A stretch of DNA of 64,000 bases. Source: Kordiimonas sp. (lineage in GTDB: Bacteria > Pseudomonadota > Alphaproteobacteria > Sphingomonadales > Kordiimonadaceae). The DNA lies in the NCBI GenBank assembly GCA_965199355.1, contig CBDARB010000011.1, forward strand, positions 148,588 to 212,587. Reading direction: 5' to 3'. A model generated the notes under the pieces. That model saw only the letters and a list, made by a program, of their open reading frames with translations. It did not search any database and had not been told where the DNA came from. Position 1 is the stretch's first letter; each line of letters starts with the position of its first letter. Below, piece after piece: positions 3,577 through 58,441 of the stretch. A program made the translations under genes and the position numbers.

Positions 3577-4764
3577 TTGACTGACAGAGAAGATAACGGC
3601 CCAGAAGTTTCCGATATCGAAACCAAAGACCATCGCGTTGCTTCTGCGAAACAGGACGATAAAGGGCTGTTTTACCCCCACGGCGAGAAGGTACCCGGTG
3701 GCAGCGAAGTCATCGAGGTGACGGATGGTGTGTTGTGGGCGCGTATTCCGCTGCCGTGGTCGCTTGATCATATTAACATCTATCTTTTCAAAGAAGATGA
3801 CGGCTGGAGCGTTGTGGACACCGGTTCACGCGGACAAACCGGCAAAGATGCATGGGCTGCAATAGAACAGGATGTGCTCAAAGGTGAACCAATAACCCGG
3901 GTGATTGCGACCCATATGCACCCGGATCATCTTGGGCTTGCAGGCTGGTTGGTTGAGCGACACAAGGCCGAGTTCTGGATTACACAAGCAGAGTATTTGC
4001 TGGCAACCACACTTTGGAACAGTGCAGGGGCTGAATTTCCCGAGCATGAACTGGACTATCTCTTCCGCGGAGGGGTCGACCGGAAGTATGAACCCATGAT
4101 CCGTGCTGCTGGGTACGGAAACTATAAAAAAGGTGTTCATACTTTGCCCGCGACATATGTGCGCATCGAAGATGGTAGCAGGCTTAGACTGGGTGGTCGC
4201 GATTGGCTTGTGATTATTGGCAGAGGGCATTCGCCTGAACATGCCTGTCTTCAATGTCTTGATGAGCCATTGTTCATTGGTGGGGACCAAATTCTGCCCG
4301 AAATTACCTCGAACGTTTCCGTTTATGCGCGTGAGCCGATGGGAAACCCACTTGCGCACTGGCTCTCCAGTCTGGATCGTATGACCGGCCTGCCAGGTGA
4401 CCCGCTCGTCTTACCATCCCATGGGCGGGTTTTTGTCGGTTTGCAAACGCGTATCGATGCGCTGATCAATGGGCATCTTGATAAACTGGCGAGACTTCAT
4501 GATTGGTGCGGTGAGGCCAGGTCTGCAACGCGGACGTTCAAAGCACTGTTTCGGCGTAAAATCGAAGGGATGGATTTCTATCTGGCACTTGGTGAGGCGA
4601 TTGCACACATTCATCTTCTCGAGTCTATCAACCTCGTGGAACGCACCTTTGACGGTGAAGTTTACCAATTCCAGTCTGTGGGTGAATTCAAACGAGCCGA
4701 AGTGATGCCTCTTGTTAATGATCAGCCTGGTGTGGCACTTCGGTCGCTGTCGGACTTGTTTTGA
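3577..4764 (+). CDS. MBL-fold metallo-hydrolase
   Basis: THMHPDHLG (HxHxDH), GHSPEH, GDQILP, LPSHG; TTG start 2 nt after the upstream stop. Confidence 0.85.
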   Translation: MTDREDNGPEVSDIETKDHRVASAKQDDKGLFYPHGEKVPGGSEVIEVTDGVLWARIPLPWSLDHINIYLFKEDDGWSVVDTGSRGQTGKDAWAAIEQDVLKGEPITRVIATHMHPDHLGLAGWLVERHKAEFWITQAEYLLATTLWNSAGAEFPEHELDYLFRGGVDRKYEPMIRAAGYGNYKKGVHTLPATYVRIEDGSRLRLGGRDWLVIIGRGHSPEHACLQCLDEPLFIGGDQILPEITSNVSVYAREPMGNPLAHWLSSLDRMTGLPGDPLVLPSHGRVFVGLQTRIDALINGHLDKLARLHDWCGEARSATRTFKALFRRKIEGMDFYLALGEAIAHIHLLESINLVERTFDGEVYQFQSVGEFKRAEVMPLVNDQPGVALRSLSDLF

Positions 4765-55214: not shown

Positions 55215-56096
55215 ATGGAAATCGTAACGCGATTGGGCCGCAAAGTCGAAGTAAACGACGACTATACGATTGACCAGAATTGGGAAGCTTTCACCGCTGA
55301 AGAGCATGACCGCTGGGACAGGCTTTATGCGCGCCAGGGCAAGCTGTTGCCGGGCCGGGCATGTGACGAGTTTATGCATGGGCTTGATGATCTTGAGCTT
55401 TCCAAAAGCGGTATCCCGCATTTTGGCAGGCTGTCTGACAGGCTGGAAAAGCGGACCGGCTGGCGCATTGTGGCCGTGCCAGACCTTGTGCCGGATGAGG
55501 TTTTCTTTGACCATCTAGCTAATCGCCGTTTCCCGGCGGGCAGTTTTATTCGCTCAGAAGCACAGCTTGACTATTTGCAGGAACCCGATGTTTTTCATGA
55601 TGTTTATGGTCATGTTCCTCTGCTGGCGAACCCGGTATTTGCTGATTATATGGAAGCCTATGGCAAGGGCGGTCAGCGCGCCATGGGCCGGGGTGTGCTT
55701 CAGAATTTAGCGAGGCTTTACTGGTACACAGTGGAGTTCGGTCTGATTAACACACCAGACGGCATGCGCATTTACGGTGCAGGTATTTTGAGTTCGAAAT
55801 CAGAGAGTATTTTCTGCCTTGATGATGCGAGCCCCAACCGTATTCATTTTGATCTTGTACGCCTTATGAAGACTGATTACCGGATTGATGATTTCCAGCA
55901 AACCTATTGGGTTATCAATAGTTTTGAAGAGCTTCTTAATGCAACATATCAGGATTTTGGCCCCATCTATGATGAGCTGGAAGCTGATACAACAAGCTAT
56001 CCTGCGGATGCAGTTCTTGATGGTGATACGGTTCACAACAAGGGCACGCAAGCCTACGCCGAAGCTGGCGGCAGGCTTGCGAAAGAAGCAAGTTGA
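55215..56096 (+). CDS. phhA: Phenylalanine 4-monooxygenase
   Basis: YLQEPDVFHDVYGHVP, RLYWYTVEFGL, IYGAGILSS. Start is ATG 55215 or TTG 55197. Confidence 0.96.
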   Translation: MEIVTRLGRKVEVNDDYTIDQNWEAFTAEEHDRWDRLYARQGKLLPGRACDEFMHGLDDLELSKSGIPHFGRLSDRLEKRTGWRIVAVPDLVPDEVFFDHLANRRFPAGSFIRSEAQLDYLQEPDVFHDVYGHVPLLANPVFADYMEAYGKGGQRAMGRGVLQNLARLYWYTVEFGLINTPDGMRIYGAGILSSKSESIFCLDDASPNRIHFDLVRLMKTDYRIDDFQQTYWVINSFEELLNATYQDFGPIYDELEADTTSYPADAVLDGDTVHNKGTQAYAEAGGRLAKEAS

Positions 56097-56123
56097 GTTT
56101 CTTCTTTCTGAAGTTATTCTGGG

Positions 56124-56650
56124 TCAGAATTTGAATTTGAGGTTGAGCTTGGTTTCGTCAACACTTTGAAACGAATTCTCATCGTCACCGCGCCGATATT
56201 CTATTCCGAACGAAGTCGAGCTTGAGCCCGAGTTCAGTAGCCCGATCTCCGCGCCTGCTGTGAAGATAGATTGGTCTTCAACGCGACTTAATATTTCGGC
56301 AAGGTAACGATAGGACGCGCTGAGTTTGAACTTTTTCCATGATAGTGACATGCCCACTTTAGCGCCCAGTCCAAGATATTCTGATGGGTTATTATTGCCA
56401 GCGTTCGCTGACCTAGCCAGCAGAAAATTGGGATTGGTACCTACTTTGTCGATGAACGAACCTTCAAGAATGGTTTGAAAACTTGAGTTTAGCGTCAGGG
56501 CGCCAATTTTGTCGCCTTCAAAGGCATCACCAAAGATACCGTAATGGGGCTTGGCACGTCCTGCTCCGTTTCGGCTTGTCGTGACGGTGGATAGGAAGGG
56601 GGTGTCGTTGCTCCTGATGCAGTAAGCTGTATCTACGGCGTCGCGCCATG
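56124..56650 (-). pseudogene. 3' fragment of an IS-interrupted secreted/outer-membrane protein gene
   Basis: Continues in frame from the 5' fragment once the IS is removed; amphipathic strands and terminal ...KLNLKFKF. Confidence 0.8.
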
Positions 56651-56689
56651 AGGCCTGCGCCATTTTATCAATCAAAAAGGAACAACAAC

Positions 56690-57724
56690 ATGACTGTATT
56701 TATAGGACTAGACGTCTCTCTGGCAAGCACGGCAGTCTGTGTACTGACGGGTAAGGGTGAGATTCTCAGGGAGGCAAAGGTGCCCAGCGAGCCGGCAGCG
56801 CTTGTGGGTTTTGTGCACAGCCTGGGGTGCGATGTCGCCAGCATTGGTCTTGAAGCAGGGCCCCTGTCCCAGTGGTTGTACAAGGGCCTGACGGAAGCGG
56901 GTTTCGAGACGGTGCTGATGGAAACACGCAGAGTGAAGGCCGCGCTGAAGGCCATGCCGATCAAAACAGATCGCCGGGATGCGGAAGGGATTGCCCGCCT
57001 GCTGCATCTGGGCTGGTTCCGGCCAGTCCACTGCAAATCCGTTTCGTCGCAGGAGATACGGGCGCTGCTGACGACCCGCCATGCCATCCAGAAGGCCCTG
57101 AAGGCTCTCGAACTGTCGGTGCGGGGTATCCTGCGCAATTTCGGTCTGAAGATGGGCAAGGTGTCGAAGGGGCGGTACGCGGCACGGGTGCGCGAGCTTG
57201 TGACCGGCAACCCTATGCTGGAAGCTGCCGTCGAGCCTGTCCTGCACGTGCGCGACACGCTGCGCAAGGAGATGGCAGGTCTGGAGAAAAAGATTAAAGG
57301 GCTGGCGACGGCGAACCCGGTCTGTGACCTGTTAATGACCATGCCCGGTGTAGGGCCGGTCGTGTCGCTGACCTTCCTGTCCGCAGTGGATGATCCCGGG
57401 CAGTTCCGCCGATCGAAGGATATCGGTCCATGGGTGGGGCTAACGCCGGGCCGGGACCAGTCGGGGGAACGGGATGTTACCGGCCGCATCACGAAGGCTG
57501 GCGATGTCGGCCTGCGAACCGCCCTGTATCAGGCGGCGACGGTCATGCTGAACGGGGGCAGATCCAACTGGCTGAAAGCCTGGGCGTTGCGTCTTGCTGC
57601 CCTGCGGGGCAAGAAACGTGCAACGGTCGCCCTTGCCCGACGCATCGGTGTGGTGCTGCACCGGATGATGGTGGACGCAACGGTGTTCTGCTTCACCCGC
57701 GAAGAGGCTGTCCGCTCTGTATAA
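56690..57724 (+). CDS. IS110 family transposase/recombinase
   Basis: DEDD RuvC-like residues in FIGLDVS, GLEAG and KTDRRDA; C-terminal TMPGVG and WVGLTP..DQSGE (Ser motif). ATG 56690 follows AAAAGGA. Confidence 0.96.
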   Translation: MTVFIGLDVSLASTAVCVLTGKGEILREAKVPSEPAALVGFVHSLGCDVASIGLEAGPLSQWLYKGLTEAGFETVLMETRRVKAALKAMPIKTDRRDAEGIARLLHLGWFRPVHCKSVSSQEIRALLTTRHAIQKALKALELSVRGILRNFGLKMGKVSKGRYAARVRELVTGNPMLEAAVEPVLHVRDTLRKEMAGLEKKIKGLATANPVCDLLMTMPGVGPVVSLTFLSAVDDPGQFRRSKDIGPWVGLTPGRDQSGERDVTGRITKAGDVGLRTALYQAATVMLNGGRSNWLKAWALRLAALRGKKRATVALARRIGVVLHRMMVDATVFCFTREEAVRSV

Positions 57725-57789
57725 ACCCGTTCAAGCAGCGTACGAGAAGAAACAGGAGGTTTGGCCGCGTCTGACAGGGGTCGGCCACC

Positions 57790-58010
57790 AGTGTCCCTGC
57801 CGGGACGCAGTCCCCGATGATGCACGCAGGATGCCTTGTCGCCGGACCCCGCACATATGTAGCGCAGGGTTCGAGCACGCCCCAAAGATAGGCACTCGGG
57901 AACTGTATTGGACAAGGTATGAAGTTGGCGGCCCTTGCCCTGCATGGCGCCGACCACGGACGGAAGCACGTACCCGGCGGTGATACAGGAAGGTGACCTG
58001 ACTCCAGAAG
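57790..58010 (+). ncRNA. Putative bridge/seek RNA in the IS110 right end (boundaries approximate)
   Basis: Contains AGGATGCCT matching the target flank, ATGGCGC and ACGGAAG matching the two IS ends, and several hand-identified hairpins. Confidence 0.6.
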
Positions 58011-58441
58011 GCAAAGGCAACGATCCACACAGTCAAAATCCAGGCTTTCCCCCTGTATACAGGGACGCCGACAAGACCCTCTCCCGTGAACCGTCAACCG
58101 TGTCGCGCCGGCTAATTGTGTGATAAAGGTGCTTGACATCAACTGCCCCATTACGGAAGCACGCCCCAAAGATAGGCACTCGGGAACTGTATTGGACAAG
58201 GTATGAAGTTGGCGGCCCTTGCCCTGCATGGCGCCGACCACGGACGGAAGCACGTACCCGGCGGTGATACAGGAAGGTGACCTGACTCCAGAAGGCAAAG
58301 GCAACGATCCACACAGTCAAAATCCAGGCTTTCCCCCTGTATACAGGGACGCCGACAAGACCCTCTCCCGTGAACCGTCAACCGTGTCGCGCCGGCTAAT
58401 TGTGTGATAAAGGTGCTTGACATCAACTGCCCCATTACGGA
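57874..58441. repeat. Perfect 284-bp tandem duplication of the IS right end
   Basis: 57874-58157 equals 58158-58441 by eye; the ORF track shows identical ORFs offset by 284 (57935 vs 58219). Confidence 0.95.

What the first reader, a model, noticed from the sequence alone, without database searches (positions are those of the whole stretch)
57933..57993. Putative donor-binding loop matching both IS ends
Seen: within a CCTT-GC-CCTG / CAGG-AAGG stem, ATGGCGC (57944-57950) is the reverse complement of the left-end GCGCCAT, and ACGGAAG (57960-57966) is identical to the right end plus core. They flank a CCG-ACCA-CGG mini-hairpin, and the strand order agrees with the target guide. The left-end match sits 4 nt away from the core, which differs from a contiguous donor guide. 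A second copy lies at 58217-58277.
Basis: partly seen in the sequence, partly recalled or inferred. Interest (0 to 1): 0.7.

Follow-up and report, generated by a model that had tools for sequence, protein, structure and literature searches.

The report
Donor-binding part of an IS1111 bridge RNA
The flagged stretch lies in the donor-recognising half of the guide ("bridge" or "seek") RNA of an IS1111-type jumping gene: its match to the right end is real, but the claimed left-end match is wrong, and the true left-end guide sits 28 bases upstream. It is a cleanly decoded example of a mechanism described in 2024.

Summary
All quoted motifs are at the stated coordinates, and the second copy is a perfect 284-bp tandem repeat.

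- **IS boundaries.** Twenty-nine genomic copies show the IS starts at 56536 (ATACCGTAATGGGGC, after a shared AG core). It has 12-bp subterminal inverted repeats. GCGCCAT (56643, 56657) is internal 5'UTR.
- **ATGGCGC is not a guide.** It is partly a window-specific 10-nt insertion in a hairpin loop and partly the 3' strand of that hairpin.
- **ACGGAAG (57960-66) is a genuine guide for the right end plus core.**
  - In 37 relatives it pairs with its own right end at 7/7 positions.
  - In 56 metagenomic elements, 55 match exactly.
  - An unbiased scan picks column 57962 as the best partner of the variable right-end base.
- **The true left-end guide is GGUAU (57916-20).** It tracks the left end: ATACC with GGUAU, ATGCC with GGCAU, ATGGG with CCCAU.
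- **Architecture.** [GGUAU]-GAA-[hairpin 57924-57957]-GG-[ACGGAAG]. This lies 3' of a well-supported target-binding arm.
- **Novelty.** This fits the IS1111 bridge RNAs predicted by Durrant et al. 2024, so it is a new member of a known kind.
- **The duplication.** It is one of 46 joints in this genome between the right end and 15 different internal AG sites.

The parts
56534..56535 (+). Left copy of the AG core. The preceding left flank has consensus CCCAA-AG.
   Evidence: All 29 left junctions read xAAG|ATACCG. The base before AG varies in relatives.
56536..58443 (+). IS1111-type IS110-family element, here with a 284-bp 3' duplication. The canonical single form is 56536-58159.
   Evidence: 29 near-identical copies in the genome. 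Ends are defined by the divergence of flanks.
56536..56540 (+). Left-end bases ATACC, read by the right donor guide.
   Evidence: Complementary to GGUAU at 57916-20. Covaries across relatives.
56539..56550 (+). Left subterminal inverted repeat CCGTAATGGGGC.
   Evidence: 12/12 complementary to 58145-56 and 58429-40.
56690..57724 (+). DEDD transposase/recombinase, 344 aa.
   Evidence: Pfam PF01548 (4e-13) and PF02371 (6e-23). The GLTPGRDQSG motif is present.
57793..57806 (+). 5' stem-loop GUCCC-UGCC-GGGAC. GCCGGG at 57799-804 may instead pair with CCCGGC at 57973-78.
   Evidence: Conserved in the alignment. The long-range helix is 86% paired.
57807..57906 (+). Target-binding arm. The closing stem is 57807-25 with 57894-906. 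It corresponds to the short seekRNA.
   Evidence: RNAalifold and pair counts show 96% of cells paired and 16 pairs with compensatory changes. 0/500 shuffles reach this.
57828..57837 (+). Right target guide AGGAUGCCUU, the reverse complement of A-AG-GCATCCT.
   Evidence: Matches the target logo from 29 insertions. Covaries with right flanks: 115 against 22 when shuffled.
57880..57887 (+). Left target guide CCCCAAAG (left flank plus core). It is followed by AU, the first two bases of the left end.
   Evidence: Target logo. 115/132 identities to each element's own left flank against 37 when shuffled.
57916..57920 (+). Right donor guide GGUAU, complementary to left-end bases 1-5 (ATACC).
   Evidence: Column 57918 is the best partner of left-end position +3 in the unbiased scan. 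GGCAU pairs with ATGCC, GGUAU with ATACC and CCCAU with ATGGG.
57924..57957 (+). Hairpin P3 between the two donor guides. The stem is 57924-32 with 57949-57.
   Evidence: 99% paired. Pair 150:173 is AU in 20, GC in 13 and GU in 3 sequences. The insertion is absent from 36 relatives.
57960..57966 (+). Left donor guide ACGGAAG, identical to the last 5 nt of the right end plus the AG core. It pairs with the bottom strand.
   Evidence: 7/7 positions pair in 37/37 relatives, 3 by G.T wobble. 55/56 metagenomic elements match exactly. It is the top column for right-end position -5.
58133..58138 (+). Outward-facing -35 box TTGACA in the right end. In the circle junction it lies 17 nt from GAAGAT.
   Evidence: CTTGAC is conserved at a fixed distance from the end in all relatives. 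Junction built. Promoter activity is inferred.
58145..58159 (+). Inner right end: subterminal inverted repeat, then GGA, then the AG core. It is now internal because of the duplication.
58158..58441 (+). Second copy of the 284-bp tandem repeat. It holds the left target guide, a complete donor module (GGUAU 58200-04, ACGGAAG 58244-50) and the functional right end. It lacks the right target guide.
   Evidence: 100% identical repeat. The joint reads TTACGGA-AG-CACGCC, at an internal AG.
58429..58443 (+). Outer right end plus AG core, followed by the right flank GCATCCT.

Best explanation
The flagged stretch belongs to the donor-binding module of the bridge RNA (long seekRNA) of an IS1111-type IS110-family insertion sequence. 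The RNA is read from the 3' non-coding region on the transposase strand.

It has two modules:
- **Target-binding arm (57807-57906).** The right target guide is at 57828-37 and the left target guide at 57880-87.
- **Donor module.** GGUAU (57916-20) pairs with the top strand of the left end (ATACC, 56536-40). ACGGAAG (57960-66) pairs with the bottom strand of the right end plus the AG core. Hairpin P3 (57924-57957) separates the two guides. They probably lie as junction strands of a multiloop.

By analogy with IS621, the two guides would hold the right end-AG-left end junction of the excised circle in one recombinase dimer, and in excision the two integrated ends. The target arm would hold CCCAA-AG-GCATCCT in the other dimer, and strands would be exchanged at AG.

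Shown here: the element's boundaries, the conserved RNA structure, and covariation of each guide with its DNA partner. Inferred: that the RNA is made, binds the recombinase and is needed for donor recognition.

ATGGCGC, the CCTTGCCCTG/CAGGAAGG stem and the CCG-ACCA-CGG mini-hairpin are not functional parts. The copy at 58217-58277 exists because the last 284 bp of the element were duplicated by a joint between the right-end core and an internal AG.
For: - **Family.** PF01548 and PF02371, the GL-P----SG motif, 12-bp subterminal inverted repeats, a 435-nt 3' non-coding region against a 154-nt 5' region, and 29 copies in one target logo.
- **Structure.** 96% of cells pair and 16 pairs show compensatory changes. 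0/500 shuffles reach this, and slid controls give 28-38%. Many G.U pairs fix the strand.
- **Left donor guide.**
  - An unbiased mutual-information scan over the whole non-coding region picks 57962 for right-end position -5.
  - It is 7/7 paired in 37/37 relatives. The variants ACGGAAG, ACAGAAG, ACCGAAG and ACGAAAG follow the right end, and the only departures are 3 G.T wobbles.
  - Permuting the ends gives 0/10000.
  - The right-end base changed at least 7 times on the transposase tree and the guide at least 6 times, never in the opposite direction.
  - 55/56 further metagenomic elements match exactly.
- **Right donor guide.** The scan picks 57918 for left-end position +3. Left-end bases 1-4 are paired in 37/37 and 17/17 elements. 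This includes a double change, ATGGG with CCCAU, in 4 elements.
- **Literature.**
  - IS1111 seekRNAs have the top-strand match 5' of the bottom-strand match, and a long form of 145-172 nt (PMC11187229).
  - IS1111 bridge RNAs are predicted in the right end, with donor-binding nucleotides often in a multiloop (PMC11208160).
  - The guide-strand logic is that of IS621 (PMC11208158).
Against: - For ISEc11 the 82-nt short seekRNA, which has only the target part, sufficed for movement. The role of the long form is stated as unknown (PMC11187229). A donor module may therefore be dispensable or auxiliary in this group, with the subterminal inverted repeats read by protein.
- The guides are short: 4-5 nt and 7 nt. 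The left-end guide does not cover the core, unlike in IS621.
- The closing helix of the donor module is not settled. The alternatives are subgroup-specific: helix 139-143/190-194 is only 62% paired and is absent in this element.
- Independent evolutionary pairs are too few for a formal sign test.
- Rfam has no matching family.
Confidence: 0.8

Rival explanations
1. One reading: ATGGCGC (57944-50) guides the left end, and ACGGAAG guides the right end, inside a loop closed by CCTTGCCCTG/CAGGAAGG.
For: The motifs are present. ACGGAAG is indeed right.
Against: GCGCCAT is not at the IS end and is a common 7-mer, 22 times in the window. 57933-42 is absent from 36 relatives. The GCGC part belongs to the covarying P3 stem. 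The mutual-information scan points to 57918, not 57944-50.
Confidence: 0.02
2. The internal ACGGAAG and GGTAT are DNA-level elements, not RNA guides. They could be internal end-like sites bound by the recombinase, or relics of end duplications kept alike by recombination with the true ends.
For: Recombination between the right end and the internal ACGGAAG site does occur: the joint at 57967 is found in two copies. The short seekRNA suffices in ISEc11 (PMC11187229).
Against: Only 5 nt plus the core are shared, while the adjacent bases (GACCACGG against CCCCATT) stay different in all relatives. Gene conversion would not respect this. The exceptions are exactly the G.T and U.G wobbles expected for RNA-DNA pairing. 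The left-end match is a reverse complement, as the IS621 strand rule requires. Both segments flank a covarying RNA hairpin.
Confidence: 0.1
3. Chance resemblance within a conserved RNA scaffold whose 3' half has another role, such as stability, processing or protein binding.
For: Single short matches are not significant on their own.
Against: Four right-end variants and three left-end variants are each followed by the RNA in about 90 elements. Permutation gives 0/10000.
Confidence: 0.05

Closest known systems
IS1111-group bridge RNAs predicted by Durrant et al. 2024 (ISPa11, ISAzs32, ISCARN28; PMC11208160)
   Same: The RNA lies in the long right end, downstream of a DEDD recombinase. It has separate target- and donor-complementary segments of 8-14 nt. 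The donor-binding nucleotides sit in a multiloop rather than a simple internal loop. Subterminal inverted repeats are present.
   Different: This is a different element with a different target (CCCAA-AG-GCATCCT). Here the donor guides are pinned to single bases by covariation: 5 nt for the left end and 5+2 nt for the right end. I could not see the published figures, so I could not compare structures base by base.
seekRNAs of ISEc11, ISPa11, ISKpn4 and ISPst6 (Siddiquee et al. 2024, PMC11187229)
   Same: The non-coding region is 3' of the transposase. [quoted passage not shown] There are no added target bases. The transposase is about 340 aa with GL-P----SG. The short (about 82-96 nt) and long (about 148-172 nt) forms fit the target arm (about 100 nt) and the arm plus donor module (about 175-190 nt) found here.
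   Different: That work assigned only target matches and left the role of the long form open. Here the 3' extension carries end-matching guides. Nothing here was tested experimentally.
IS621 bridge RNA donor-binding loop (Hiraizumi et al. 2024, PMC11208158)
   Same: Two guides flank a stem-loop. The guide for the left side of the donor junction pairs with the bottom strand and includes the core. The guide for the right side pairs with the top strand.
   Different: The order along the RNA is reversed, with the top-strand guide first. The core is AG, not CT. The right donor guide does not reach the core. The RNA is 3' of the gene. The element has long subterminal inverted repeats.
ISPpu9 modular minicircles (Pares-Guillen et al. 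2025, PMC12288879)
   Same: It has an AG core. Recombination occurs at alternative AG dinucleotides, and tandem copies of an end-proximal small-RNA module exist.
   Different: ISPpu9 is in the IS110 group and its extra module has its own end-like boxes. Here the joints run from the true right end to many unrelated internal AG sites.

Membership tests
IS110 family, IS1111 group | DEDD (RuvC-like) N-terminal domain plus the PF02371 C-terminal domain | tested here: met
   PF01548 at 4.4e-13 and PF02371 at 6.2e-23. The protein is 344 aa.
IS110 family, IS1111 group | Subterminal inverted repeats of 7-17 bp | tested here: met
   A 12-bp perfect repeat, 56539-50 against 58145-56 and 58429-40, set 3 nt in from each end.
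IS110 family, IS1111 group | The longer non-coding region lies downstream of the transposase gene | tested here: met
   154 nt upstream (56536-56689) against 435 nt downstream (57725-58159).
IS110 family, IS1111 group | GL-P----S(T)G motif in the C-terminal domain | tested here: met
   GLTPGRDQSG is in the translation.
IS110 family, IS1111 group | Site- and orientation-specific insertion without a target duplication beyond the shared core | tested here: inconclusive
   All 29 copies lie in CCCAA-AG|..|AG-GCATCCT. No empty site was recovered: the flank has no homologue in the 30 relatives searched.
Bridge RNA / seekRNA | [quoted passage not shown] | tested here: met
   The left target guide shows 115/132 identities against 37 when shuffled. 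The right target guide scores 115 against 22. The order is as in IS1111 seekRNAs.
Bridge RNA / seekRNA | Two segments matching the two donor ends (donor-binding loop), covarying with the ends | tested here: met
Bridge RNA / seekRNA | Conserved secondary structure presenting the guides as unpaired strands | tested here: met
   for the target arm and P3. The outer closure of the donor module is unsettled.
Bridge RNA / seekRNA | The RNA is expressed and bound by the recombinase, and is required for circle formation and insertion | not testable with these tools
   No run on record as RNA holds the stretch.

The most novel reading that the evidence does not exclude
The recombinase of this element repeatedly joins its right-end core to internal AG sites with almost no further sequence requirement. 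Several of these sites lie in the DNA that encodes the guides and therefore mimics its natural substrates. The result is heritable variants that can still transpose, carrying one target module and two or more donor modules, plus arrays longer than 15 kb. This would be a natural in vivo record of off-target or aberrant bridge recombination. The 3' extension of the right-end guide (AG-CACG) may even have templated the commonest joint.
Probability: 0.35. Interest if true: 0.6.

Novelty: new member of a known kind. Interest (0 to 1): 0.35.

Why it matters
How IS1111-type elements recognise their own ends is still open. The seekRNA study found the short, target-only RNA sufficient and left the role of the long form unknown. 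The bridge-RNA study only predicted donor loops for this group.

This element family gives a base-resolved, covariation-backed assignment of both donor guides in the 3' extension. The guides are a 5-nt left-end guide and a 7-nt right-end-plus-core guide, flanking a hairpin. The assignment can be tested directly with compensatory mutations and could help in designing IS1111-type recombinases as tools.

For annotation, it corrects the element's left boundary by 115 bp.

Tried and rejected
- **Rfam.** A scan of 55500-59500 at E<=1 gave no family.
- **Single-sequence folding.** Folds of the non-coding region and its pieces had z-scores near 0, so they were uninformative.
It can form, but shows no compensatory change and conflicts with P3.
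- **Helix 139-143/190-194 as the closure of the donor module.** It is subgroup-specific and absent in this element.
- **Helix 133-138/194-199 as an RNA-RNA explanation of the C/U change at 57918.** Only one of the five U-bearing rows has the matching A, so the link to the left end explains the change better.
- **Expression.** No RNA holder is listed. Read laying was not run, because only contigs of DNA or unlabelled runs were on offer.
- **Empty-site search.** The right flank found nothing in the 30 relatives searched.
- **Internal joint sites against guide-specified sequences.** There is only weak likeness to the right target half (p=0.02) and none to the left target half, the left end or the right end.
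- **mafft-qinsi** was not available.

Full report
**What is at the locus.** Window 56690-57724 (+) encodes a 344-aa protein with the DEDD_Tnp_IS110 and Transposase_20 domains and the GLTPGRDQSG motif typical of IS1111-group transposases (motif from PMC11187229). A search of the window's own genome found 29 full copies at 99.9-100% identity.

Aligning their junctions fixes the ends.
- Every copy begins ATACCGTAATGGGGC directly after ..AAG. In the window this is 56536.
- Every copy ends ..GCCCCATTACGGA-AG. In the window this is 58159 for the single form and 58443 for the duplicated form.
- CCGTAATGGGGC (56539-50) and GCCCCATTACGG (58145-56, 58429-40) are perfect 12-bp subterminal inverted repeats.
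- In relatives the base before the left AG varies, so the shared core is AG.
- The 29 insertions give the target logo CCCAA-AG|GCATCCT.

That is 115 bp too short on the left. Both reconstructions of the disrupted minus-strand gene happen to be in frame, which explains the slip.

**Checking the observation.** However, GCGCCAT (56643-49, 56657-63) lies in the 5' untranslated region of the element, not at its end. It is also an ordinary 7-mer here, occurring 22 times against 17.5 expected. ACGGAAG occurs 12 times against 6.8 expected.

**Relatives.** A scan of genome contigs with the transposase gave 80 loci with 65-74% identity, mostly Alphaproteobacteria. Forty-two had recognisable ends of the same type.
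- Right ends vary: TTACGGAAG, TTACAGAAG, TTACCGAAG, TTACGAAAG.
- Left ends vary: ATGCC, ATACC, ATGCT.
- Flanks differ widely.

The 3' non-coding regions align into a conserved scaffold with four variable patches.

**RNA structure.** On 37 distinct sequences (alignment A1), RNAalifold and explicit pair counts support three features.
- A long closing stem: window 57807-25 with 57894-906.
- An internal hairpin in which all six pairs show compensatory changes.
- A second hairpin, P3 (57924-32 with 57949-57). One of its pairs is A-U in 20 sequences, G-C in 13 and G-U in 3.

Overall 96% of cells pair and 16 pairs show double changes. No shuffle out of 500 reaches this, and slid controls give 28-38%. 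The many G-U pairs show that the transposase strand is the RNA strand.

A long-range helix, GCCGGG 57799-804 with CCCGGC 57973-78, is 86% paired. It would make the region around P3 a multiloop. This matches Durrant et al.'s remark that in many IS1111 orthologues the donor-binding nucleotides sit in a multiloop (PMC11208160).

**Target guides.** In the first arm, AGGAUGCCUU (57828-37) is the reverse complement of A-AG-GCATCCT, and CCCCAAAG (57880-87) equals the left flank plus core. Across relatives both follow their own flanks:
- left guide, 115/132 identities against 37 when flanks are shuffled;
- right guide, summed match 115 against 22.

The order, with the top-strand match first, is the one reported for IS1111 seekRNAs (PMC11187229). 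This agrees with the earlier follow-up on 57810-57870 (e1-5283348).

**Donor guides.** I scanned every column of the non-coding alignment for mutual information with each variable end position.
- For right-end position -5 (G/A/C), the best column apart from the end itself is window 57962, the third base of the loop's ACGGAAG.
- For left-end position +3 (G/A), the best column is 57918, the U of GGUAU at 57916-20.

For the right end, reading each element against its own end, the 7-nt segment pairs with the bottom strand of the last five right-end bases plus AG at 7/7 positions in 37/37 elements. It follows four end variants, and the only non-Watson-Crick cases are three G.T wobbles.

For the left end, the 5-nt segment pairs with the top strand of left-end bases 1-5 at four or five positions in all 37 elements.

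Shuffling the ends among elements never reaches the observed total (0/10000). On a transposase tree the right-end base changed at least 7 times and the guide at least 6 times. In independent pairs the guide never moved the opposite way, though the pairs are too few for a sign test.

A pattern scan of metagenome contigs added 120 loci.
- In 56 with an identifiable right end, the guide equals the end in 55.
- In 17 with a left end, bases 1-4 pair in all.
- Four elements with the new left end ATGGG carry CCCAU instead of GGCAU, a double compensatory change.

**Resulting anatomy in the window.** The donor module reads [GGUAU 57916-20]-GAA-[P3 57924-57957]-GG-[ACGGAAG 57960-66].

This is the IS621 layout of guide, stem-loop, guide, with the same strand rule. 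The guide for the left side of the donor junction pairs with the bottom strand and includes the core. The guide for the right side pairs with the top strand (PMC11208158). Two things differ: the order along the RNA is reversed, as in the target arm, and the right donor guide does not cover the core.

The target arm is about 100 nt and the whole RNA about 175-190 nt. These sizes fit the short and long seekRNAs of 82-96 nt and 148-172 nt (PMC11187229).

- ATGGCGC (57944-50) is partly P3 loop and partly the 3' strand of P3.
- The mini-hairpin CCG-ACCA-CGG can form but has no compensatory support, and it competes with P3.

**Caveat on function.** For ISEc11 the short, target-only RNA was sufficient, and the authors state that the role of the long form and the mode of end binding are unknown. 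The donor module may therefore be stimulatory rather than essential in this group. Nothing here shows that the RNA is expressed.

**The second copy.** The genome has 29 left ends but 75 right ends. Forty-six right ends are joined to one of 15 internal positions rather than to flanking DNA. Every such position lies directly after an AG.
- The same variants recur at different loci. For example, the 284-bp form occurs five times, so duplicated forms still transpose.
- No left end lies next to IS-internal sequence.
- No solo fragments are seen.
- The sites resemble the right target half only weakly (p=0.02) and nothing else.
- Five sites fall in or beside guide-encoding DNA: 57830, 57876, 57892, 57917 and 57967.

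L048 and L066 from other genomes carry the same kind of duplication. ISPpu9, which also has an AG core, forms aberrant minicircles at alternative AG dinucleotides (PMC12288879).

My inference is that aberrant excision between the right junction and an internal AG gives a small circle. That circle re-enters a full copy by homologous or recombinase-mediated recombination, producing a tandem 3' duplication. This step is not shown.

**Verdict.** The object is a well-decoded new member of the IS1111-type bridge/seek RNA class. The scan had already noted the element, its target guide and the duplication on this same window.

Noticed in passing
window 58158-58441; genome-wide in G000 (C1, C2, C5, C10, C14, C16): The genome has 29 left ends but 75 right ends. 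Forty-six right ends are joined to 15 different internal positions, each directly after an AG, giving tandem partial 3' duplications of 99 to 1303 bp. Identical variants recur at different loci, so they still transpose.
   Followed up: partly
G000 C14:521422-530883 and C5:1-7646: One copy is followed by an alternating array of 1109-bp and 584-bp 3' fragments that runs off the end of contig C14 and resumes at the start of C5. That makes more than 15 kb of amplified partial IS. It could be a real amplification or an unresolved assembly.
   Followed up: no
G000 C10:147430-149669: A duplication that is not anchored at the right end. IS bases 1-1360 end in CCCCAA-AGAT, the DNA of the left target guide, which mimics the left junction. 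They are joined to internal GGGGGC-AGAT-CCAACT (window equivalent 57560), with 4 shared bases: AG plus the first two left-end bases.
   Followed up: partly
window 57960-57970 versus 58153-58163: The RNA reads ACGGAAG-CACG and the duplication joint reads ACGGAAG-CACG, an 11-nt identity. The extra 4 nt have roughly a 6% chance of arising among 15 sites. This is suggestive only that the guide strand favoured this joint (also note e1-5283351).
   Followed up: partly
L048:about 4300-4600 and L066 (3' end of the non-coding region): Related elements in a Parvibaculaceae MAG and a Rhodospirillaceae MAG also carry a partial 3' tandem duplication. In L048 it starts after an internal AAG inside the P3 region.
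   Followed up: no
window 56124-56535 and 58444-59807 (minus strand): The IS interrupts an AT-rich gene. With the corrected boundary it reads 1364+412 = 1776 nt (591 aa), not 630 aa. The fragments have no Pfam hit, and the flank has no DNA homologue in the 30 relatives searched.
   Followed up: partly
window 58133-58138 plus 56536-56541 when joined: Joining the right and left ends gives TTGACA-17 nt-GAAGAT, a possible junction promoter. CTTGAC is conserved at this distance from the end in all relatives.
   Followed up: no
A1 columns 139-143 with 190-194 (window 57919-23 / 57968-72): In the Rhodobacterales-type relatives a 4-6-bp helix with compensatory changes (GAUG/CAUC, GGUG/CACC, AAUG/CAUU) links the bases just 3' of each donor guide. 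It is absent in this element and its closest group, so the donor module has two sub-architectures.
   Followed up: partly
window 57815-57827 and equivalents in relatives: The conserved CGAUGAUGC(A)CG just 5' of the right target guide reads GAUGCCGU in many relatives. This is identical to the core-proximal left end, G-ATGCCGT. It does not covary with the left end and may be coincidence or a protein-binding element.
   Followed up: no
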